Shown: positions 2-11,751 of the stretch, in pieces
How positions within the stretch are numbered: position 1 is the first letter of the stretch
Layout: every line of letters begins with the position of its first letter
Origin: a virus
Length of the DNA stretch: 11,751 nt
Virus genome (UHGV): UHGV-1586850
Direction: 5' to 3' (one strand)
Position numbers and translations under genes: made by a program
Notes under the pieces: generated by a model
The model's input: the letters and a program-made list of their open reading frames with translations, nothing else
The model's database searches: none
What the model was told of the DNA's origin: nothing

Positions 2-406
2 GCCACCATTGCGGCACTGATGACAGTTTACGATCAGGAGCTGCTCATGAAGGAGCTACGTAAACTCACCGGTCAGCCAACAGAATGTTTTTCTGCCCCG
101 AAGTACGGGAAACAGGAACACATCCCGGTGAACACGCTCCCCGTTAACCAGCCTCCCCGGTTCTTCGACGAATACATTCTGACACCGGAAAATAAAGCTG
201 AGCACGAAGAGATCAAAGCGGCGTTGTTCCGGGAAATCAGGAAGATTGCTGAAATGCAACTGGGGGGCGGGCTGGACAGAGTGATGGCGAGAGGAGAATG
301 GGAGTCGCTGTTTGAAAGAGTTTCCCCGGAATTACTTCCCCTCGCACTGGCTATCGGGATTATGCAGACAGCGGATAAACCTCACTTACGTTCATTAAAC
401 ACGTAA
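2..406 (+). CDS. Hypothetical protein, 5'-partial (frame open to the left window edge)
   Basis: No in-frame stop between position 2 and the first ATG at 20, and no Shine-Dalgarno before ATG 20, so the gene probably starts upstream of the window. Stop TAA at 404-406. No motif recognised. Confidence 0.4.
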   Translation, partial: ATIAALMTVYDQELLMKELRKLTGQPTECFSAPKYGKQEHIPVNTLPVNQPPRFFDEYILTPENKAEHEEIKAALFREIRKIAEMQLGGGLDRVMARGEWESLFERVSPELLPLALAIGIMQTADKPHLRSLNT

Positions 407-783
407 CGCATAATCCGGGATACGCATTCAGCGATGACTGCATTTTCACCGGTTTTTACTGCATCCAGAAGTGACTCTTTAAATGGTGCGGGCCGGGGCT
501 GCAGAAGGGTCGGCGTGGCATTGAGCAGACGGAGCGTTTTTTCCGTGAGGACGACATCAGCCGCTCCCACAGCCAGCAACTGAGAGTAACGAATATAGCT
601 GTTATCCCGAAGCCATATCAGCGTATCAATAAAATACCGGCACTTTTTCTGGTCGTGATCAACCTGGTCCGGGATATCGAAAAAACCAGAATAAATCAAA
701 ACCTGAGGTGCCGGATGCGTGTTCAGTAATCGGCAGAATATTTTGCCGGTGAGTGCATAAAAATCATCATTTAAGGAGTGCAT
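382..783 (-). CDS. Hypothetical protein (about 133 aa)
   Basis: 134-codon ORF on the minus strand with tandem ATGs (complement of 781-786). GGGGA SD-like element (complement of 790-794) lies 6 nt before the second ATG. Convergent 25-bp overlap with the preceding ORF. No motif recognised. Confidence 0.4.
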   Translation of the reverse strand: MHSLNDDFYALTGKIFCRLLNTHPAPQVLIYSGFFDIPDQVDHDQKKCRYFIDTLIWLRDNSYIRYSQLLAVGAADVVLTEKTLRLLNATPTLLQPRPAPFKESLLDAVKTGENAVIAECVSRIMRYVFNERK

Positions 784-784
784 C

Positions 785-1000
785 ATGAATCCCCGATTAA
801 CGTTAACAGAACATCAGCGCCGTGCTGAAGCAGTGAACAATGTTCTGGAAGATATTATCCGGTTACATCGCGGAGAACTGAGTGTCTGTCGTGCCGCTTT
901 TCATTTTCAGGGAATACAAAAGCAGTTTGATACTTCTGTTTTTGCAGAAGGTATTACTTATGCCCTGGACCGGATAAGGTCAGAAAATCGCCCCGGATAA
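785..1000 (+). CDS. Hypothetical small protein (71 aa)
   Basis: Strong SD AAGGAG (773-778) 6 nt upstream of ATG 785. Product unrecognised. Confidence 0.45.
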   Translation: MNPRLTLTEHQRRAEAVNNVLEDIIRLHRGELSVCRAAFHFQGIQKQFDTSVFAEGITYALDRIRSENRPG

Positions 1001-1056
1001 TCCCTAAACCACATTAACAGAAATCCCACTATCCCTGCCGCATCATGAAAGAACGA

Positions 1057-1087
1057 CCAGCCCGGTGCTTCGGACCCACCGGGCTGG
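1057..1087. other. GC-rich stem-loop (11-bp perfect stem, 9-nt loop) without a T-tract
   Basis: CCAGCCCGGTG (1057-1067) pairs perfectly with CACCGGGCTGG (1077-1087). No U-run follows on either strand, so it is not a canonical intrinsic terminator; could be an RNA structural element or REP-like hairpin. Confidence 0.3.
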
Positions 1088-1131
1088 CCATCGTCCCACA
1101 GAAGTGGCTGTGAGCCGACCGAGGTTCAGTC

Positions 1132-1143
1132 AGTCTCGCGAGA
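1132..1143. promoter_or_regulatory. Perfect 12-bp palindrome GTCTCGCGAGAC about 50 bp upstream of the methyltransferase start; candidate operator
   Basis: The sequence equals its own reverse complement. It sits just upstream of the AT-rich putative promoter region (1160-1180) of the Dam-like gene. Confidence 0.25.
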
Positions 1144-1191
1144 CCAGACTAGCCTGCCATATTTTTAATAATTGTAAAAGGCTTACAGATT

Positions 1192-1956
1192 ATGAAAATG
1201 AAGACATTACCCATCGTTCCATGGATTGGTGGCAAACGTCGCCTGGCAAAACACATCCTGCCGCTGTTTCCGGCGCATGAATGTTATGTGGAGCCGTTTT
1301 GTGGGGCAGCAGCGCTCTATTTTCTTAAGACACCCGGCAAGATCGAAGTCATCAATGATATCAACGGTGAACTGGTGAATCTGTACCGGGTGGTAAAGCA
1401 TCACCTGGAAGAATTTGTCCGCCAGTTCAAATGGGCGCTGGTCAGCCGTCAGATCTACAAATGGCTGCAGATCACCCCGGAAGAAACACTGACGGATATC
1501 CAGCGTGCGGCACGGTTCTACTACCTTCAGAAGCAGGCGTTTGGCGGCAAGGTGGCAGAGCACAGCTTCGGTACCTCCACCACATCCCCGCCACGCTTCA
1601 ACCTGCTGCGTATTGAAGAAGAACTGTCAGCAGCACACCTGCGGCTTTCCAGAACAGTCATAGAACACATGGACTGGCAACAGTGCATTGAGCGTTATGA
1701 TCGTCCGCACACACTGTTCTACTGCGACCCACCGTACCTGGGTACGGAAGGCTATGGTGTGGATTTTCCTGAAGGGAACTACTCGCGGCTGGCAGAGCTG
1801 GCCCGGTGCATCAGAGGAAAAATGATAATTTCGGTGAACGATATCCCACAGATGCGCGAGGTGTTCACTGGACTGAACATACAGACAGTGAACATCAACT
1901 ACAGTCTGGCGGGGAAATCTACGCCGCGCCGTGAACTGGTAATCTGCAACTTCTGA
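1192..1956 (+). CDS. Dam-family (D12 class) N6-adenine DNA methyltransferase, apparently orphan
   Basis: N-terminal VPWIGGKRRL (the xWxGGK signature of Dam-like enzymes), EPFCGAAALYF AdoMet-binding motif I variant, and catalytic DPPY at residues 179-182 (nt 1726-1737) in the Dam-typical position. No restriction endonuclease candidate adjacent. Confidence 0.9.
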   Translation: MKMKTLPIVPWIGGKRRLAKHILPLFPAHECYVEPFCGAAALYFLKTPGKIEVINDINGELVNLYRVVKHHLEEFVRQFKWALVSRQIYKWLQITPEETLTDIQRAARFYYLQKQAFGGKVAEHSFGTSTTSPPRFNLLRIEEELSAAHLRLSRTVIEHMDWQQCIERYDRPHTLFYCDPPYLGTEGYGVDFPEGNYSRLAELARCIRGKMIISVNDIPQMREVFTGLNIQTVNINYSLAGKSTPRRELVICNF

Positions 1957-2072: not shown

Positions 2073-2411
2073 TCAGCCTGCGAGTTTGCTTGGTTTGGGT
2101 TGAATGAAGACTTTGCCGACCTCAAGAATTGCCCTCCGTTGTTCGGGGCTCATTTCGTCGAATGCATCCATTAACTCTTTCTTTTCTTGTGACACATAAG
2201 GTGCAACAACAGGCTGACTCCGCACCCCAGTAACTACATACAAAATATCTACACCGATTTCTGATAGTGCAGATAACTGCACTGCAGTAGGAGAAGTGCG
2301 ATCTTTTTCCCAATCAATGAAAGTTCTCTTTGCCACACCTATAGCATCAGCCAACCCTTGCTGTGTAAGAGATAGACGCTCTCTTTCTTCTTTAATACGT
2401 AACCCGATCAT
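2073..2411 (-). CDS. XRE-family HTH transcriptional repressor (prophage c/CI-like), about 112 aa
   Basis: Helix-turn-helix LSLTQQGLADAIGVAKRTFIDWEKDRTSP near the N-terminus if translation starts at the ATG at 2411. Leftward orientation, divergent from the early operon. The longer ORF-track model (GTG at 2564) would overlap the ner-like gene by 53 bp and lacks an SD. Confidence 0.7.
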   Translation of the reverse strand: MIGLRIKEERERLSLTQQGLADAIGVAKRTFIDWEKDRTSPTAVQLSALSEIGVDILYVVTGVRSQPVVAPYVSQEKKELMDAFDEMSPEQRRAILEVGKVFIQPKPSKLAG

Positions 2412-2458
2412 GTGAGTTTTTCTGCACTCTTTAAGTTGACTGGTGAGGTAATCTGCAC
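2412..2458. promoter_or_regulatory. Two 16-bp operator-like repeats GTGAG-N4-TCTGCAC (2412-2427 and 2443-2458)
   Basis: Direct repeat with 31-bp centre-to-centre spacing. Each copy is an imperfect dyad (GTGAG versus the complement of CTGCAC, i.e. GTGCAG). Copy 2 lies in the -35/-10 spacer of the early promoter. Confidence 0.4.
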
Positions 2459-2464
2459 CATAAT
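2436..2464 (+). promoter_or_regulatory. Candidate early promoter (Pe-like): TTGACT-N17-CATAAT
   Basis: -35 TTGACT (2436-2441), 17-bp spacer, -10 CATAAT (2459-2464). About 45 bp upstream of the ner-like start, whose SD AAAGGAGA is at 2499-2506. Confidence 0.5.
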
Positions 2465-3071: not shown

Positions 3072-3983
3072 ATGGGACGCACCAAATCACCGATTAACAC
3101 TGAACTGAACGCCGAGGTACCGCTGTCGGATGATCTCAATGTCAGTCTGAACGCCATGACACAGCATCGTATGGAGATCATGCAGCAGTTTGGCGATGGT
3201 CAGCCCTATGAGCGTGATCGCATAGTTCATGAGGCTCGGTTTTATATGGCACAGAGCGCTGAGGCCATGCTGGAAGCAGGTAAACGACTTATTATTCTCA
3301 AAGAAAATGAACCTCACGGGGACTTTGTTGGAATTGTAGAAGAACAACTTGGTCTGCATGTGCGCGCAGCACAACGAATGATGAAAGCATCTTTGAAATA
3401 CCTTTCACCAAAACTAGAGCCAAAAGCGACAACGTTGTCGCTTTTAGGTAAGGCAAAATTATTTGAACTTGTTGCTGAAGATGACGACGACCTTGCTGAA
3501 CTGGCCGACGGTGGCACAGTTGCCGGACTGACGCTTGACGATGTTGATCGCATGTCAGTACGTGAATTGCGTCAGGCCCTGCGCGAAGCGCGCGAAACCA
3601 ACGCAGCACAACAGCGCGTACTCGCCGACAAAAATGAAAAAATAGATTCACTCTCCACCAGACTGGAGAAGAAATCCCGTATTCAGCCGCCTGAGCCTGA
3701 TGAGGAGGTTAAGAAGCTGCGGGCGGAAGTAACAGCATTAGCGGTTGAGGCGGAATCTGCTATCGCCGTCCGACTGTCCAGCGCTTTTGAGACGCTGTGC
3801 GCATATTGTGCTGAAAACATGATTGATACCCCCAGAGACTTCATGGCAGGCCTGGTCTGTCAACTGGAAAGCACAGCGCGTAGCCTGCGCTCCACATTTG
3901 ACCTGCCGGACGAGCCAACAGGCAATGCAGCGCCTTCATGGCTGACTGAGCCGACGCCACAGATTAACGGGCTGGAGGCATAA
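3072..3983 (+). CDS. Hypothetical protein (303 aa) with an acidic stretch and predicted coiled-coil
   Basis: SD AGGAG (3061-3065) 6 nt before the ATG. Acidic run AEDDDDLAELADGG and a heptad-like charged helical region. Stop is 3 nt before the transposase start (translational coupling). Confidence 0.65.
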   Translation: MGRTKSPINTELNAEVPLSDDLNVSLNAMTQHRMEIMQQFGDGQPYERDRIVHEARFYMAQSAEAMLEAGKRLIILKENEPHGDFVGIVEEQLGLHVRAAQRMMKASLKYLSPKLEPKATTLSLLGKAKLFELVAEDDDDLAELADGGTVAGLTLDDVDRMSVRELRQALREARETNAAQQRVLADKNEKIDSLSTRLEKKSRIQPPEPDEEVKKLRAEVTALAVEAESAIAVRLSSAFETLCAYCAENMIDTPRDFMAGLVCQLESTARSLRSTFDLPDEPTGNAAPSWLTEPTPQINGLEA

Positions 3984-3986
3984 CCA

Positions 3987-5756
3987 ATGAATGCTGCCCT
4001 GACTGAACGACTGGTTTATGTCGCCCGCGCGGCACGTGACGCGGGGCATGGTAAACGCGGCGCAGTATACGACGCTGCCTGTGCTGAACTTGGCATGTCC
4101 CGCGCCACTCTGCTGCGCAGGCTGAAGGAGGTATCTGTGACTGATAAACGCAAAAAACGCGCCGATGCCGGGCGCAGCGCCCTGACCCGCGACGAAGCCG
4201 CGCTGATATCTGCCACACTGCGTGAGGCCACCCGCAAGAACGGTAAGCGTCTCTATTCCATCGCGGATGCAGTGGAAACCCTGCGGGCTAACGGCTTTAT
4301 ATCCGCAGGCAGAACAGATGAAACCACCGGTGAGTTTTTCCCGTTGTCCGAAGATGCCATCAGCCGAGCCCTGCGTAACTATGGCCTGCACCCGGAACAA
4401 CTGGATGCCCCTGCACCGCATACCGAAGTGGCCAGTCTGCACCCCAATCATGTCTGGCAGATTGACGCCTCACTCTGCACGCTTTACTACCTGAGCAATG
4501 GACATAAAGGGCTGCAGGTGATGGACAGCGCGAAATTCTACAAAAACAAGCCCGCTAACCTTGCCCGTATCGCCAGTGACCGCGTGTGGAGTTACGAGAT
4601 TACCGACCATGCCAGCGGCTGGATTTACGTTGAGTATGTGACGGGTGCGGAATCCGGTGAGAACCTGTGTTCTGTGCTTATCAACGCCATGCAGGAGCGT
4701 GGCGGCGCAGACGTGCTGCACGGCGTGCCAAAAATACTCTATCTCGACCCCGGCTCGGCAAACACCGCGGGTATGACGAAAAACATGTGCCGCTCACTGG
4801 GCATCGACCTGATAGCGCACAAGCCGCATAACGCCCGCGCCACCGGACAGGTGGAAAAGGCGCGTGACATTATCGAACGCAAGCTGGAGCCGGGTCTGAA
4901 GTTCCGGCCGGTTCACAGTCTGGAAGAACTCAACGCGCTGGCCGCGAAATGGCGCAGCCACTTTAACGCCACGGCTGTTCACAGCCGCCACGGTAAAACC
5001 CGCACGGATATCTGGCTGAAGATTACTGCTGAGCAGCTGAAAAAAGCGCCTTCCGTTGAGGTATGTCGTGAACTGGCTGTGGCGGCACCAGAACTCCGCA
5101 AAGTCACGCCAAAACTTCGTGTCTCGTTCCGGGGCACTGAATTTGACGTATCAACGGTACCGGGCGTACTGGTCGGTGAAAAACTGATGATTACCCGTAA
5201 CCCGTGGCGCAGCGATGTGGCACAGGTGGTTCTGACCGGTGAGGACGGCCACGAGACGTTCTTCCTGGTCGAAGAGGTCAGAAAGAACGAGTTTGGCTTT
5301 GCTGAAGGCGCGGCGGTATTTGGCGAAAGTTACAAAGCCCTGCCGGAAACCCCGGCGCAGATGGCGGCAAAAGAAACCGAAGCGCTGGTCACCGGTACAG
5401 ACAACGCCGCAGATGCAGCTGCCGCACGCAAGGCGAAGGCGCTGCCGTTCGGCGGGCGGCTTGACCCGTATAAACATATTGATGACGCCACACTTCCGGC
5501 CTGTATACCGAAGCGTGGTCAGGCCTCTGACGTACGCGGGCCGCGCACTGAACAACGTCCCATGACTTATGTGGAGGCCGCGAAAGCCCTGCGCGATAAG
5601 TTCAGCGCCAACGGCTTTACCTGGACGCCGGAACATTACCGCCAGTTAACGGCACAGTATCCGGACGGCGTACCGGAAGCCGCACTGGATGAAGTCATGG
5701 CCACGCTGACCACGCCGGCCCGCAGCAGCGTTATCAGTATTGTTAACGGCAACTGA
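3987..5756 (+). CDS. DDE transposase/integrase-fold protein (Mu A-like; DD(35)E catalytic core)
   Basis: 589 aa, SD GGAGG (3974-3978). Candidate catalytic triad D160 (HVWQIDAS, nt 4464-4466), D254 (ILYLDPGS) and E290 (ATGQVEKA), with the 35-residue D-to-E spacing typical of the rve/retroviral-integrase superfamily. HTH-like N-terminus. Followed directly by an ATPase gene, as in Mu A/B. Confidence 0.85.
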   Translation: MNAALTERLVYVARAARDAGHGKRGAVYDAACAELGMSRATLLRRLKEVSVTDKRKKRADAGRSALTRDEAALISATLREATRKNGKRLYSIADAVETLRANGFISAGRTDETTGEFFPLSEDAISRALRNYGLHPEQLDAPAPHTEVASLHPNHVWQIDASLCTLYYLSNGHKGLQVMDSAKFYKNKPANLARIASDRVWSYEITDHASGWIYVEYVTGAESGENLCSVLINAMQERGGADVLHGVPKILYLDPGSANTAGMTKNMCRSLGIDLIAHKPHNARATGQVEKARDIIERKLEPGLKFRPVHSLEELNALAAKWRSHFNATAVHSRHGKTRTDIWLKITAEQLKKAPSVEVCRELAVAAPELRKVTPKLRVSFRGTEFDVSTVPGVLVGEKLMITRNPWRSDVAQVVLTGEDGHETFFLVEEVRKNEFGFAEGAAVFGESYKALPETPAQMAAKETEALVTGTDNAADAAAARKAKALPFGGRLDPYKHIDDATLPACIPKRGQASDVRGPRTEQRPMTYVEAAKALRDKFSANGFTWTPEHYRQLTAQYPDGVPEAALDEVMATLTTPARSSVISIVNGN

Positions 5757-7859: not shown

Positions 7860-8054
7860 ATGATATTTAAATGTATTCAGTGCGAGAGGGATATAACAGC
7901 CCTGCGTTTTCACAGCGCCATCGCCGTGATGTCCGGTAAATACCACATCCCTGCGGTACGCGTCACCCTGGTCTGCCCGTACTGCAGCCAGCATTTTTCG
8001 GCAGACGTGCCCGTCATGGAATTCTCCCGCCCTGACAGGGAGGACTCGCAATGA
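7860..8054 (+). CDS. Small zinc-ribbon-like protein (64 aa)
   Basis: Two CxxC pairs (CIQC near the N-terminus, CPYC near residue 40). SD GAGGAG (7844-7849). Confidence 0.5.
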   Translation: MIFKCIQCERDITALRFHSAIAVMSGKYHIPAVRVTLVCPYCSQHFSADVPVMEFSRPDREDSQ

Positions 8055-9750: not shown

Positions 9751-10192
9751 ACAACGTCTTATCCAGCTCATTCATATTGCCCGTAATGAACTGGGTATGG
9801 ATGAAGACACCTACCGCCAGATGTTACAGGGGCTGACCGGTAAAGCCTCAACCAAAGGAATGGATACCACACAACTAAACTGCGTGCTGGAATCCATGAA
9901 AAGGAAAGGCTTTCGCGTTAAGCCTGCCGGAAAAGCCAGCTCCGGTTTACCGCTGGATAACCATCCGCAGTCCAGGAAAATCCGTGCGCTATGGCTTGAA
10001 ATGGCTGCTGCCGGCATTGTTCGTGACCGTTCAGAAAATGCATTAGCGAGGTGGATCAAGCGGGAAACGGGCATCAGCGCCCTGCGCTGGCTCAGTACTG
10101 AACAGGCAAGCAGTGTTATTGAGAAACTGAAGAAGTGGCAGCGCAGAGCTGCGGGAGTCAAACATGAGCGACCTGAATCAGTTTCGAAGTAA
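9740..10192 (+). CDS. gemA: GemA-like protein (Mu gp16 / DUF1018 family)
   Basis: SD AAAAGGAG (9727-9734) 5 nt before ATG 9740. N-terminal TKQRLIQLIHIARNELGMDEDTYRQML matches the gp16/GemA signature as I recall it. Sits immediately upstream of mor, as in Mu. Confidence 0.65.
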   Translation: MMTKQRLIQLIHIARNELGMDEDTYRQMLQGLTGKASTKGMDTTQLNCVLESMKRKGFRVKPAGKASSGLPLDNHPQSRKIRALWLEMAAAGIVRDRSENALARWIKRETGISALRWLSTEQASSVIEKLKKWQRRAAGVKHERPESVSK

Positions 10193-10562
10193 AGGGCCGG
10201 AACTCCTGGTGGAGCTGGCACAGCATACCTCTGAGACCGTTCGCGAGATTATTGATATTGAGCCCGCAATTGCCGACCAGATTGGTCAGGCCGTCGCGAA
10301 CCGAATGATGCAGGTCTGGGGCGGGCAAAACGTTTATTTCCCGATGGGCATGGTATGGAAGGTCAGTCAGCGCGACCGGGAAATCTTCAGGGAGTTTAAC
10401 GGACGCAACCACCACGAACTGGCCCGCAAGTTTGGTGTTTCGCTTCAGTGGGTCTACAGCGTGGTTAAGCGGGTCAGAAAAGAAGAACTGGATCGGATGC
10501 AGGGCAGGTTGTTTGATGAAGATCTGCCAGAGGAGACGAAAGACGTTAACAAATCCAGATAA
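10164..10562 (+). CDS. mor: Mor-like transcriptional activator (Mor/C family)
   Basis: 132 aa. C-terminal GGQNVYFPMG ... FREFNGRNHHELARKFGVSLQWVYSVVKR matches the conserved Mor/C HTH region (compare Mu Mor GGGQVYIP ... FNGRN ... YGV ... VYK). Last gene before the intrinsic terminator. Confidence 0.85.
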   Translation: MSDLNQFRSKGPELLVELAQHTSETVREIIDIEPAIADQIGQAVANRMMQVWGGQNVYFPMGMVWKVSQRDREIFREFNGRNHHELARKFGVSLQWVYSVVKRVRKEELDRMQGRLFDEDLPEETKDVNKSR

Positions 10563-11549: not shown

Positions 11550-11629
11550 CCCGACTTATCTATCGTATAGCGGAAAAGAATTTCAGTTCTGTTCACCAGA
11601 ACCCATGTTAACCCACTCCAATTCGTTAT

Positions 11630-11751
11630 TTATCTCACGGATCCCCCTTCATTTATCTCATGTCTGATCATGTAATCCAGCAGATGATGCTCCGCAAGAA
11701 TCACAATGTGCTGGACTTCAGTCACCACATGCATATTAATGCCGCGATCGT
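11630..11751 (-). CDS. Possible 3' end of a minus-strand gene entering from the right window edge, speculative
   Basis: 39 sense codons open to the window edge, ending at TAA (complement of 11630-11632). Too short to assess. Confidence 0.2.

What the first reader, a model, noticed from the sequence alone, without database searches (positions are those of the whole stretch)
1132..1956. Orphan Dam-family methyltransferase beside the prophage repressor, with a perfect 12-bp palindrome upstream
The methyltransferase has clear D12-class motifs but no restriction partner within 1 kb on either side. It ends 8 bp before a hairpin that also serves the convergent repressor gene. GTCTCGCGAGAC (1132-1143) upstream is a perfect palindrome and may be a control site. 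An orphan adenine methyltransferase could protect phage DNA from restriction or act epigenetically; in Mu, Dam methylation controls the mom operon.
Basis: partly seen in the sequence, partly recalled or inferred. Interest (0 to 1): 0.45.

Follow-up and report, generated by a model that had tools for sequence, protein, structure and literature searches.

The report
Structured RNA leader guarding phage methylase
The gene is an ordinary-looking orphan adenine methylase of a Mu-like prophage, but the "palindrome" in front of it is the tip of one hairpin in a roughly 145-base folded RNA leader that hides the ribosome-binding site, matches no Rfam family, and recurs in more than 180 phage and prophage loci in front of unrelated DNA-modification genes.

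Summary
A 254-aa D12/Dam-family adenine methyltransferase lies at 1192-1956, and no restriction enzyme is annotated anywhere in the prophage. The palindrome is at 1133-1144, one base off. The hairpin after the gene (1963-1987) is the repressor's terminator.

The element is a BcepMu-like transposable prophage of E. coli. It is inserted at different chromosomal sites in different strains, so this is not host dam.

The palindrome alone is not significant: the window has 4 perfect 12-mers against 2.9 expected. Comparison shows it is the apex of hairpin P3 in a conserved leader (1048-1191).

A covariance model finds this leader in about 75 bacterial loci, 5 named phages and 100 IMG/VR contigs, and in no Rfam family. 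Covariation is strong (0.30-0.38 against 0.12-0.15 in shuffles).

It supports mutually exclusive helices. The Shine-Dalgarno segment (1179-1188) can pair with either of two upstream anti-SD segments, which are themselves competed for by other segments.

The leader also precedes com-D12 methylase (phage B3), beta-class methylases and com-mom. It therefore looks like a translational lock for phage DNA-modification genes.

A late-promoter-like motif (1004-1019) lies upstream. The effector of the switch and the methylation target remain unknown.

The parts
1004..1019 (+). Late-promoter-like motif CTAAACCACATTAACA
   Evidence: A regex derived post hoc matches only this site and the regions upstream of the four late transcription units (holin, head, tail, baseplate) in the 38.5-kb prophage; 6 hits against 0.31 in shuffles. 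The motif lies a fixed 26-38 nt upstream of the leader in 21 of 75 loci. Promoter function is inferred.
1048..1191 (+). Conserved structured RNA leader of the methylase mRNA (covariance-model match 1048-1194)
   Evidence: R1 105.3 bits, E=3.5e-29; R2 102.3 bits. Fold z-score -4.28. Covariation. No Rfam family.
1049..1054 (+). T: 5' tail (AAGAAC) that pairs with M' (helix P0)
   Evidence: Helix T:M' is 88.7% paired, covariation 0.467 against 0.164 in shuffles, with pair types GC 23, CG 21, AU 10. It was not part of the model that made the alignment. It is 91.4% paired in independent viral contigs. In E. coli only 4 bp form (GAAC/GUUC).
1057..1087 (+). H0: GC-rich hairpin CCAGCCCGGTG / CACCGGGCTGG
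   Evidence: All 11 modelled pairs show changes on both sides; 83-89% paired.
1097..1101 (+). R1 (CACAG): pairs with the 5' part of R2
   Evidence: R1:R2 is 90.9% paired, covariation 0.285 against 0.118; pair types AU 48 / GC 20 and AU 48 / UA 16.
1108..1116 (+). R2 (CTGTGAGCC): anti-SD segment that pairs either with R1 or with the SD segment
   Evidence: R2:R3 helix is 86.4% paired, with UA 39 / CG 19 / UG 6 at one pair. It is the minimum-free-energy pairing in E. coli.
1122..1131 (+). M / M' (AGGTTCAGTC): pairs either with T or with the 3' strand of P3 and segment c
1133..1144 (+).
   Evidence: A hairpin at this position in 60 distinct variants. 42 of 60 carry a perfect palindrome of 8 bp or more, against 4 of 60 for H0. 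25 of 44 tetraloops are self-complementary.
1151..1155 (+). c (AGCCT): second anti-SD segment; pairs with M or with the SD segment
   Evidence: c:d helix is 87-90% paired. It is the minimum-free-energy pairing in L012 and L026.
1161..1179 (+). P4: A/U-rich hairpin next to the SD
   Evidence: 66-85% paired, with double changes at all 6 pairs.
1179..1188 (+). d / R3: Shine-Dalgarno segment AGGCTTACAG, 3 nt before the ATG
   Evidence: Positions 1180-1188 have an unpaired probability of at most 0.01 in the ensemble. The segment is more paired than in shuffled-upstream controls across 130 leaders.
1192..1956 (+). Orphan D12-class (Dam-family) N6-adenine DNA methyltransferase, 254 aa
1963..1987 (-). 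Intrinsic terminator-like hairpin with its T-run on the minus strand (end of the repressor transcript)
2073..2414 (-). Prophage repressor candidate (HTH_3; DicA/CI-like); RefSeq calls a longer form reaching 2531
10164..10562 (+). Mor-family late-gene activator, the presumed activator of the late-type promoters
   Evidence: PF08765, E=1.1e-43. Its link to the 1004-1019 motif is inferred.

Best explanation
The region is the DNA-modification module of a BcepMu-like transposable prophage.

A late-type promoter motif (1004-1019) is followed by a ~145-nt structured 5' leader (1048-1191). Next comes an orphan D12-class adenine methyltransferase gene (1192-1956).

The leader is an RNA switch that keeps the ribosome-binding site paired by default. 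The SD segment (1179-1188) can be held by either of two anti-SD segments: R2 (1108-1116) or c (1151-1155). Each of these has its own competitor: R1 (1097-1101) for R2, and M (1122-1131) for c. M in turn is competed for by the 5' tail T (1049-1054). The SD is free only when R1:R2 and M:c/P3 form together.

The biological reading is that the methylase is made only late in lytic growth and in limited amount, as with mom in Mu. It would then modify progeny DNA against restriction.

Shown:
- the gene family;
- the prophage context;
- conservation and covariation of the RNA helices, including the mutually exclusive ones;
- the association of the leader with several unrelated DNA-modification genes.

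Inferred:
- that the promoter is Mor-dependent;
- that the switch controls translation;
- what flips the switch;
- the methylation target and the anti-restriction role.
For: Context:
- 100% identical DNA lies at different sites in many E. coli chromosomes (635 of 5426 genomes). The insertion interrupts gspL in one strain and yjjI in another.
- Phage PhiKM (Bcepmuvirus) is 96% identical.
- The window encodes a transposase, an ExeA-type ATPase, Gam, GemA, Mor and a BcepMu gp16-family protein.

Gene:
- PF02086 and the TIGR00571 dam subfamily match.
- Relatives at 58-66% identity occur in B3 ORF48, phiE125 gp27, VP882, KS9, MuM16-1 and Acinetobacter phages.

Leader:
- 1046-1191 is more conserved than the coding sequence in KP12, Phi06 and PhiKM.
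- The covariance model finds it in about 75 of 80 genome loci, always just upstream of the methylase or of com.
- It is also found in 5 named phages but not in a 49-kb host control, and in 100 IMG/VR contigs.
- Covariation: model structure 0.307 against 0.146 in shuffles; state-1 topology 0.303 against 0.115 on independent viral data, and 0.377 against 0.137.
- Helices not included in the model also covary: R1:R2 0.285 against 0.118; T:M' 0.467 against 0.164.
- P1 and P4 show G.U far more often than A.C (88 against 33; 25 against 7). This points to the plus-strand RNA.

SD sequestration:
- In E. coli the minimum free energy is -54.7 kcal/mol with R2:SD paired, against -43.9 with the SD free. 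Unpaired probability is at most 0.01. The nascent RNA first forms R1:R2.
- Other members use c:SD.
- Across 130 leaders the SD segment is more paired than in controls.

Functional association:
- 95 of 105 informative viral contigs have the D12 methylase downstream.
- The others include com plus a beta-class methylase, a beta-class methylase alone, and com plus Mom (PF25680, E=3.6e-73).

Promoter motif.
Against: - No experiment here shows the transcript, its 5' end or any effect on translation.
- Every predicted equilibrium state hides the SD, so an activating factor or a kinetic window must be assumed, and none was identified.
- One idea was that a ribosome terminating upstream occludes T. This fits only 22 of 68 loci (gap of 10 nt or less), and not this window (48 nt).
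- T:M' is only 4 bp in the E. coli version.
- H0 shows more A.C than G.U (71 against 32). That would suit the minus strand better.
- The P3 apex is a true DNA-type palindrome in most variants. An RNA hairpin does not require this.
- The promoter regex was derived post hoc.
- Methylase specificity is unknown. In the HMMER alignment to E. coli Dam I read off, by hand, that Dam R124, N120, L122 and P134 align to A122, G118, K120 and S132. That these are the GATC-contact residues is from memory of the Dam-DNA structures. GATC therefore cannot be assumed.
- The silence of such prophage methylases in lysogens is taken from Forde 2015 (PMC4659465). I could not verify that their M.EcoMIV is this gene.
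Confidence: 0.6

Rival explanations
1. The leader is a true riboswitch. The three-way junction (T:M', H0, R1:R2), with its conserved unpaired junction bases (..UCAACCCACAG.. and ..GAGCCAA..CCAAGGC..), would bind a small molecule. Binding would decide whether segment c is free to sequester the SD. This is a special case of the best explanation, with a metabolite as effector.
For: - Junction nucleotides are highly conserved next to covarying helices.
- The helices are mutually exclusive and involve the SD.
- The state-1 topology scores divergent members better (against 48, 74).
- The element travels with the gene alone, without any linked regulator gene: KP12 and this window have different flanks.
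Against: - No ligand is suggested by context.
- SAM or SAH would suit the methylases. It would not suit Mom, which to my knowledge is not SAM-dependent.
- No Rfam aptamer class matches.
- No binding data exist.
Confidence: 0.2
2. One reading: the palindrome is a DNA operator for a dimeric regulator (the repressor, Ner-like, IclR-like or Mor protein) that controls methylase transcription.
For: - Dyad symmetry runs through the 'loop' in most variants. 42 of 60 variants have a perfect palindrome of 8 bp or more, and 25 of 44 tetraloops are self-complementary against 1 in 16 expected. This is typical of protein-binding DNA, not of RNA hairpins.
- The site lies about 50-60 bp upstream of the ATG.
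Against: - The palindrome sequence is different in nearly every relative, while the regulators of unrelated phage types cannot co-vary with it.
- There is no second copy in the window, even with 2 mismatches.
- It is flanked by RNA helices with compensatory changes and plus-strand G.U bias.
- The module moves between phages with different regulators.
- Photorhabdus versions have a non-palindromic 9-nt loop yet keep the hairpin.
Confidence: 0.1
3. Part of the conserved region acts on the minus strand. H0 followed by CGYUCUUU would be the terminator of a cis-antisense RNA that starts near the methylase start codon and blocks its mRNA, in the manner of ctRNA, SymR or Sok.
For: - H0 has more A.C than G.U on the plus strand (71 against 32). 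These would be G.U on the minus strand.
- The conserved AAAGAGCG 5' of H0 reads as a U-rich tract on the minus strand.
- There are terminator-like and promoter-like hits on the minus strand at 1076-1059 and 1198-1171.
- One locus gives a sub-threshold ctRNA_pGA1 hit on the minus strand (30.7 bits, gathering score 45).
Against: - AAAGAGC is explained by the strongly covarying T:M' helix.
- P1 and P4 have a clear plus-strand G.U bias.
- The minus-strand promoter-like hexamers are not conserved among relatives.
- The ctRNA hit is absent from the window and below threshold.
Confidence: 0.07
4. The methylase is half of a restriction-modification or other defence system whose partner is one of the unknown neighbouring genes (20-406, 382-786, 785-1000).
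For: - Three tightly overlapping genes of unknown function lie just upstream.
- The 247-aa protein has a weak P-loop-like N-terminus.
- PADLOC's closest model for the methylase is labelled 'Type II methyltransferase'.
Against: - The neighbours match no PADLOC, Pfam or NCBIfam nuclease or defence family, only PHROGs of unknown function.
- In KP12 and other relatives the methylase and leader keep their place while the neighbours differ.
- In about 180 loci the only constant partner is the RNA leader.
Confidence: 0.03

Closest known systems
com-mom operon of phage Mu (late, C-dependent promoter; mom start site held in a translation-inhibition stem that Com opens)
   Same: - A DNA-modification gene of a transposable phage.
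- A late-type promoter motif.
- A start region sequestered in RNA secondary structure.
- The same leader RNA precedes com-mom (L187) and com-methylase operons (B3, L113/L127) in other phages.
   Different: - The window has no Com gene. PF10122 is absent, and the 64-aa zinc-ribbon ORF at 7860-8054 is not Com.
- The enzyme is a D12 methyltransferase, not Mom.
- Mu itself has no match to the leader, even with filters off.
- Where com is present, the leader lies upstream of com, so it is an additional layer and not the Com target.
- The gene is central in the genome (BcepMu layout), not at the right end.
Pseudomonas phage B3 ORF47 (Com) / ORF48 ('Dam modification methylase')
   Same: - The methylase is 63% identical.
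- The same leader RNA is found at L004 2212-2348, ending on the com ATG.
- Both are Mu-like transposable phages.
   Different: - B3 has com between the leader and the methylase.
- In B3 the leader region is annotated as tiny ORFs 45 and 46.
Hia5 / Hin1523 / Nma1821 non-specific adenine methyltransferases at the mom position of Mu-like prophages (Drozdz et al. 2012, PMC3299994)
   Same: - Orphan, Dam-related m6A methyltransferases carried by Mu-like prophages in place of mom.
- Proposed broad anti-restriction role.
   Different: - That paper states that B3 ORF48 was not among the 1000 sequences most similar to Hia5. This enzyme, a B3 ORF48 relative, therefore belongs to a different subfamily.
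- Non-specific activity cannot be transferred to it.
E. coli Dam, T4 Dam and DpnM (GATC-specific D12 methyltransferases with solved structures)
   Same: - Same Pfam family and order of motifs.
- HMMER E-values of 4e-17 to 4e-3 to PDB chains 2dpm, 2g1p and 1q0s.
   Different: - Similarity is distant. The match to the host Dam equivalog model is only 68 bits against a cut-off of 441.
- The residues I recall as contacting GATC in EcoDam are not conserved in the alignment (read by hand).
- The gene is prophage-borne and not syntenic with host dam.
Attenuator-type leaders with competing hairpins (trp leader logic) and kinetically controlled SD sequestration (MS2 maturation-gene leader); named from general knowledge
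   Same: - A chain of mutually exclusive helices (T:M' / M:c / c:SD, and R1:R2 / R2:SD) decides whether the last element, here the SD, is free.
- The local hairpins form first on the nascent chain.
   Different: - The output is translation initiation, not termination.
- There is no conserved leader peptide. The 22-codon ORF starting at 1045 is not conserved.
- The distance from the upstream stop codon is variable.
'D12-methyl' RNA motif of Weinberg et al. 2017 (recalled from memory only)
   Same: As I recall it, a candidate cis-regulatory RNA found upstream of D12-class DNA methyltransferase genes.
   Different: - I could not retrieve its consensus. It is not in the paper's main text, and no supplement is held.
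- No Rfam 15 family matches this leader at gathering score in 20 loci, and only chance-level or sub-threshold matches appear at E up to 5-10.
- Identity with that motif is therefore neither shown nor excluded.

Membership tests
D12-class (Dam-family, alpha-type) N6-adenine DNA methyltransferase | Match to Pfam PF02086 / TIGR00571 above the curated cut-off | tested here: met
   PF02086 102 bits (cut-off 22), E=5.9e-29. TIGR00571 117.4 bits (cut-off 114.85).
D12-class (Dam-family, alpha-type) N6-adenine DNA methyltransferase | Catalytic motif IV (DPPY), with the AdoMet motif I (FxGxG) N-terminal to it | tested here: met
   DPPY at residue 179. Motif I at residue 36 reads FCGAA (FxGxA, the last G replaced by A).
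GATC-specific Dam (EcoDam / T4Dam / DpnM type) | Conservation of the DNA-recognition hairpin residues of EcoDam (R124, N120, L122, P134; recalled from the Dam-DNA structures) | tested here: not met
   By my own reading of the HMMER alignment to 2g1p, these positions align to A122, G118, K120 and S132. The alignment in this loop is uncertain, so the target specificity stays open.
Host chromosomal dam (equivalog NF008152) | Score above the equivalog cut-off, and the conserved chromosomal context | tested here: not met
   68.3 bits against a cut-off of 441. The gene lies inside a prophage at variable insertion sites.
Type II restriction-modification system | A cognate restriction endonuclease gene next to the methylase | tested here: not met
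   No nuclease is annotated in the 38.5-kb prophage. The neighbours have no PADLOC, Pfam, NCBIfam or PDB match. Unknown folds cannot be excluded.
Mu-type com-mom module | A Com zinc-ribbon gene (PF10122) directly upstream of and overlapping the modification gene | tested here: not met
   There is no ORF with PF10122 in the window. B3 ORF47 and the L187 Com do match (E=4e-22 and 2e-21).
Mu-type com-mom module | Start site of the modification gene sequestered in an RNA stem | tested here: met
   Prediction only. Positions 1180-1188 have an unpaired probability of at most 0.01. The helices are supported by covariation.
Mu-type com-mom module | Mom-family enzyme (PF25680) | tested here: not met
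   The enzyme is PF02086. Mom is found behind the same leader only in L187.
Hia5-like non-specific adenine methyltransferases | Close sequence relationship to Hia5, Hin1523 or Nma1821 | not tested
PMC3299994 reports that B3 ORF48, which is 63% identical to this protein, was not among the 1000 top Hia5 relatives.
BcepMu-like (Bcepmuvirus) transposable phage | DDE transposase plus AAA+ partner, Mor, GemA, Gam and a gp16-family protein; early genes divergent from the lysis and structural genes; insertion at many sites | tested here: met
   rve, AAA_22/ExeA, Mor, GemA and TIGR04111 BcepMu_gp16 (97 bits). Gene order. PhiKM is classified as Bcepmuvirus. Insertions in gspL and yjjI.
Any Rfam 15 RNA family | Covariance-model score at or above the gathering threshold | tested here: not met
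   0 matches in the window plus 19 loci. At E up to 5-10 there are only chance-level or sub-threshold hits (miRNA, sRNA, snoRNA, ctRNA and SymR models).
Riboswitch | Ligand-dependent change of structure or expression | not testable with these tools
   Only the architecture is seen: a conserved junction and competing helices that involve the SD.

The most novel reading that the evidence does not exclude
The 1048-1191 leader represents a previously uncatalogued class of RNA switch, possibly a riboswitch built on a three-way-junction sensor. This class would be dedicated to gating translation of phage DNA-modification enzymes. It would have been recruited independently in front of three non-homologous genes (D12 methylases, beta-class methylases, and com-mom) across Mu-like, BcepMu-like, lambda-like and P2-like phages of Proteobacteria, and at least one cyanophage.
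Probability: 0.3. Interest if true: 0.8.

Novelty: new variant of a known kind. Interest (0 to 1): 0.62.

Why it matters
Phage-borne orphan methylases are common, usually silent in lysogens, and mostly unexplained.

A shared, portable RNA lock in front of Dam-like methylases, beta-class methylases and com-mom would explain how such potentially toxic or mutagenic enzymes are kept off until late lytic growth.

It would also give a handle for finding anti-restriction modification genes in metagenomes: look for the leader.

It offers a compact, experimentally tractable RNA with several mutually exclusive, covariation-supported helices and an unknown trigger.

For E. coli epidemiology, the element is present in about 12% of complete genomes, including ST131. 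This helps explain why methylome studies see the gene but no motif.

Finally, several phage annotations (B3 ORF45/46, and the 285-aa methylase call in PhiKM) probably mis-call ORFs over this RNA.

Tried and rejected
1. Host dam was rejected.

2. A second copy or half-sites of the palindrome as operators: none with up to 2 mismatches.

3. Shared k-mers between the leader and the late intergenic regions gave only weak GTCTC-like matches. The useful shared element turned out to be the TTAAAC..TTAATA motif further upstream.

4. A conserved leader peptide: the 22-codon ORF from 1045 loses its frame in close relatives and its ATG in other genera.

5. Com elsewhere in the prophage: the 64-aa CxxC..CxxC ORF (7860-8054) does not match PF10122.

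6. A ribosome terminating at the upstream stop codon that occludes T: the gap is 10 nt or less in only 22 of 68 loci, and 48 nt here.

7. My first structure (P2 = AGGCU:AGCCU, with one long P3) is only one of the competing states. In the Paraburkholderia clade segment c changes to GAAUUC and pairs with the SD segment but not with M.

8. Literature on target specificity:
- The phiE125 and VP882 papers are not held.
- The Shewanella paper tested another enzyme.
- The Photorhabdus methylome paper was uninformative.

9. Linking the gene to M.EcoMIV of EC958: the region I fetched was not the prophage, and the cluster look-up gave only generic names.

10. The 'D12-methyl' motif could not be retrieved.

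11. Plus- versus minus-strand bias over all helices together was inconclusive (247 G.U against 197 A.C). Per-helix counts were informative.
Full report
**What is at the coordinates**

The ORF 1192-1956 (+, 254 aa) exists. It is a D12-class adenine methyltransferase. It matches PF02086 (E=5.9e-29) and the TIGR00571 dam subfamily (117.4 bits, cut-off 114.85). DPPY is at residue 179, and motif I reads FCGAA at residue 36.

The palindrome GTCTCGCGAGAC is perfect but lies at 1133-1144. It is one of four perfect 12-mers in the window, where shuffles give 2.9. It is therefore not remarkable on its own.

The hairpin after the gene is at 1963-1987. Its T-run is on the minus strand only, so it reads as the terminator of the convergent repressor gene (2414 to 2073).

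**Context**

The first 3.1 kb are 100% identical to many E. coli chromosomes, at unrelated positions. In all, 635 of 5426 complete genomes have a match.

In strain DA33135 the element interrupts gspL; in AR_0081 it interrupts yjjI. Window and prophages share sequence up to window position 11670, which marks the prophage end.

Phage PhiKM (Bcepmuvirus) is 96% identical.

The window carries:
- an rve transposase and an ExeA-type AAA+ protein;
- Gam (as annotated), and GemA and Mor (PF08765, E=1e-43);
- a BcepMu gp16-family protein.

Lysis and structural genes run divergently to the left. This is a BcepMu-like transposable prophage. The methylase sits in its central region, between the late operon and the repressor.

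It is not host dam: NF008152 scores 68 bits against a cut-off of 441.

No nuclease is annotated in the prophage. The three overlapping unknown genes upstream match nothing informative.

**The enzyme family**

Relatives at 58-66% identity occur in many temperate phages. They include B3 ORF48, phiE125 gp27, phi1026b, KS9, VP882, phiHAP-1, MuM16-1 and Acinetobacter phages. They also occur in thousands of bacterial proteins.

Similarity to structurally known GATC enzymes is distant. By my reading of that alignment, the EcoDam residues I recall as contacting GATC are not conserved.

The non-specific Hia5 family described for Mu-like prophages is a different subfamily: the authors note that B3 ORF48 is not among the top Hia5 relatives.

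The target therefore remains open. GATC is under-represented in the window (28 sites against 45 expected), which decides nothing.

**The palindrome is part of an RNA**

In KP12, Phi06_2974B and PhiKM, similarity to the window starts at about 1045, and 1046-1191 is more conserved than the coding sequence. The RNA fold of 1040-1215 has a z-score of -4.3 and pairs CUGUGAGCC with GGCUUACAG next to the start codon.

I fetched 80 genome loci encoding relatives. Almost all carry, in the same place, conserved blocks: AAGAGCGACC, AACCCACAG, CCUGUGAGCC, CCAAGGCU, AAGCCUA and AAAGGCUUACAG. Hairpins of variable sequence separate these blocks.

A covariance model built from 29 leaders finds the element at these places:
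- window 1048-1194 (105 bits, E=3.5e-29);
- about 75 loci, always directly upstream of the methylase or, where a com gene intervenes, directly upstream of com; in phage B3 the match ends on the com ATG;
- MuM16-1, VP882, Mae-JY22, phiE125 and AM106, but not in 49 kb of host DNA.

No Rfam 15 family matches.

**Covariation and competing helices**

On the model-derived alignment:
- 80% of cells pair, against 69% in shuffles;
- the covariation score is 0.307 against 0.146 +/- 0.005, with slid controls at 0.05-0.09;
- 33 of 38 pairs have double changes.

Two helices that were not in that model also covary.

- R1 (1097-1101) with the 5' half of R2 (1108-1112). It is 90.9% paired and scores 0.285 against 0.118. 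This helix excludes R2:SD. One column pairs with both partners and changes together with both (AU to GC in R1:R2, UA to CG in R2:SD).
- The 5' tail T (1049-1054) with M' (1124-1129). It is 88.7% paired and scores 0.467 against 0.164, with GC/CG/AU and AU/GC alternations. This helix excludes the base of P3 and the M:c pairing.

In the Paraburkholderia clade, AGCC becomes AAUU in both R2 and c, while GGCU becomes AAUU in the SD segment. Both anti-SD pairings are therefore kept.

A second model uses the nested topology: T:M' closes a three-way junction with H0 and R1:R2; then comes the P3 apex; then c:SD enclosing P4. It scores divergent members better. It also shows covariation of 0.303 against 0.115 on 100 independent viral contigs, and 0.377 against 0.137 on the genome set.

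G.U outnumbers A.C in P1 and P4 (88 against 33; 25 against 7). This indicates the plus-strand RNA. H0 shows the opposite (32 against 71).

**What the leader goes with**

A strict core pattern found 109 IMG/VR contigs.

| Gene downstream of the leader | Contigs |
|---|---|
| D12 methylase directly downstream | 91 |
| com, then D12 methylase | 2 |
| D12 methylase further downstream | 2 |
| Contig ends within 300 nt of the leader | 4 |
| Other | 10 |

The 10 'other' contigs comprise:
- com plus a beta-class N6_N4 methylase (L113, L127);
- a beta-class methylase directly (L192);
- com plus a Mom-family protein, PF25680, E=3.6e-73 (L187);
- six truncated remnants.

All of those examined have full model matches. 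Phage Mu itself has none.

The RNA is thus tied to DNA-modification genes of three unrelated families, not to one gene lineage.

**Promoter**

A motif CTAAACCACATTAACA (1004-1019) resembles sequences upstream of the four late transcription units of the same prophage. A post hoc regex hits only those sites and this one in 38.5 kb (6 hits against 0.31 expected).

The motif sits 26-38 nt upstream of the leader in 21 of 75 loci, mainly Enterobacterales.

In most other phages the leader lies in a same-strand gap after an upstream ORF. There it is part of an operon.

**How it probably works**

In the E. coli sequence the minimum-free-energy fold (-54.7 kcal/mol) pairs R2 with the SD segment. A fold with R1:R2 and a free SD costs about 11 kcal/mol more. 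SD nucleotides 1180-1188 are unpaired with probability at most 0.01. Prefixes of the transcript form R1:R2 first.

In other members the minimum-free-energy fold uses c:SD instead.

Across 130 leaders the SD segment is more paired than with shuffled upstream sequence (median unpaired probability 0.17-0.19 against 0.33-0.38).

I therefore read the leader as a default-off translational lock with attenuator-like logic. The SD is free only when both anti-SD segments are held by their competitors.

What achieves this is not known. Candidates are a kinetic window on nascent late transcripts, a ligand for the three-way junction, a protein, or processing that removes T.

The biological role is late, limited methylation of progeny DNA as an anti-restriction device, analogous to mom. 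It is inferred from the company the leader keeps and from published work on mom-position methylases (PMC3299994). It also draws on the report that a D12 prophage methylase of ST131 strain EC958 was not transcribed in culture and had no assigned motif (PMC4659465). I could not confirm that this is the same gene.

**Unexplained**

The apex of P3 is a true palindrome through its loop in most variants. 42 of 60 variants have a perfect palindrome of 8 bp or more, against 4 of 60 for H0. 25 of 44 tetraloops are self-complementary (binomial P about 3e-19, ignoring phylogeny).

An RNA hairpin does not need this. Possible explanations are a DNA-level role, RNA dimerisation, or a mutational bias in which template switching perfects quasi-palindromes where the loop is unconstrained. 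None was tested.

**Verdict**

The gene is a new member of a known kind. The palindrome alone is chance-level.

The control region it belongs to is a widespread, covariation-supported RNA leader that I could not find in Rfam or in the searchable literature. A motif called 'D12-methyl' (Weinberg 2017), which I recall from memory, could overlap with it. I could not check this.

Noticed in passing
window 1133-1144, and the same position in L007-L201: The apical part of hairpin P3 is a perfect DNA-type palindrome, loop included, in most of 60 distinct variants (TCGCGA, CTCGAG, ATCGAT, GTCGAC, ACCGGT, TACGTA, CGATCG and others). The neighbouring hairpin H0 in the same RNAs is not. There is no explanation yet.
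   Followed up: partly
window 20-406 (+, 5'-truncated; 247 aa in full), 382-786 (-), 785-1000 (+): Three genes of unknown function (phrog_3787, phrog_2266, phrog_4490) are packed with overlapping ends. The minus-strand gene overlaps the end of the first gene by 25 nt, and its start codon overlaps the start of the third (CATCATG). The 247-aa protein has a weak P-loop-like N-terminus. KP12 has different genes here, so this is a variable cargo slot.
   Followed up: partly
window 7860-8054 (+): A 64-aa ORF with two CxxC pairs (a zinc-ribbon-like protein) in the early operon. It has no match to the Com family PF10122 and only faint zinc-finger hits.
   Followed up: partly
window 11600-11670; L003 2696-2769: The prophage ends at about window 11670, where the sequence diverges from other lysogens. 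Repeated CATTTATC(T/G)C motifs near both prophage ends look like transposase-binding repeats.
   Followed up: partly
L046 (Yersinia pekkanenii) and L070 (Candidatus Pantoea bathycoeliae), about 100 nt upstream of the methylase start at 3501: These relatives (65-69% identical) lack the RNA leader. Instead they have clusters of GATC sites upstream (for example GATCGGTTAAATCGATCAATTAACCACAACCGATCTGTGTAACCGATCG). This hints at methylation-dependent control and perhaps GATC specificity in that branch.
   Followed up: no
L009 (Pantoea stewartii) 3386-3503: Only the 3' third of the leader (from AGCCTGCC onward) is kept; the 5' part is replaced by unrelated sequence. This is a natural truncation that should leave the SD without the R2 anti-SD segment.
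   Followed up: no
L004 (phage B3) 2079-2304; L002 (PhiKM) 3913-4767: Deposited annotations place tiny ORFs (B3 ORF45/46), or a 5'-extended methylase (PhiKM, 285 codons), over the region that the covariance model identifies as the RNA leader. These are probably annotation artefacts.
   Followed up: partly
window 2436-2464 (+): The best sigma-70-like promoter in the region (TTGACT-17-CATAAT, 10 of 12) faces the early operon and lies inside the RefSeq-annotated 5' part of the repressor gene. This suggests the repressor starts at the ATG at 2414 rather than at 2531.
   Followed up: no
L124, L156, L191, L128, L157, L200 (IMG/VR contigs): These are leader copies followed by no methylase: remnants, or leaders in front of other genes such as a putative tail protein. 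They are possible footprints of module exchange.
   Followed up: no
L026 3345-3423 (-): A sub-threshold Rfam hit to ctRNA_pGA1 (30.7 bits, gathering score 45) on the minus strand of H0. Together with the A.C excess in H0, this leaves a small chance of an antisense transcript.
   Followed up: partly
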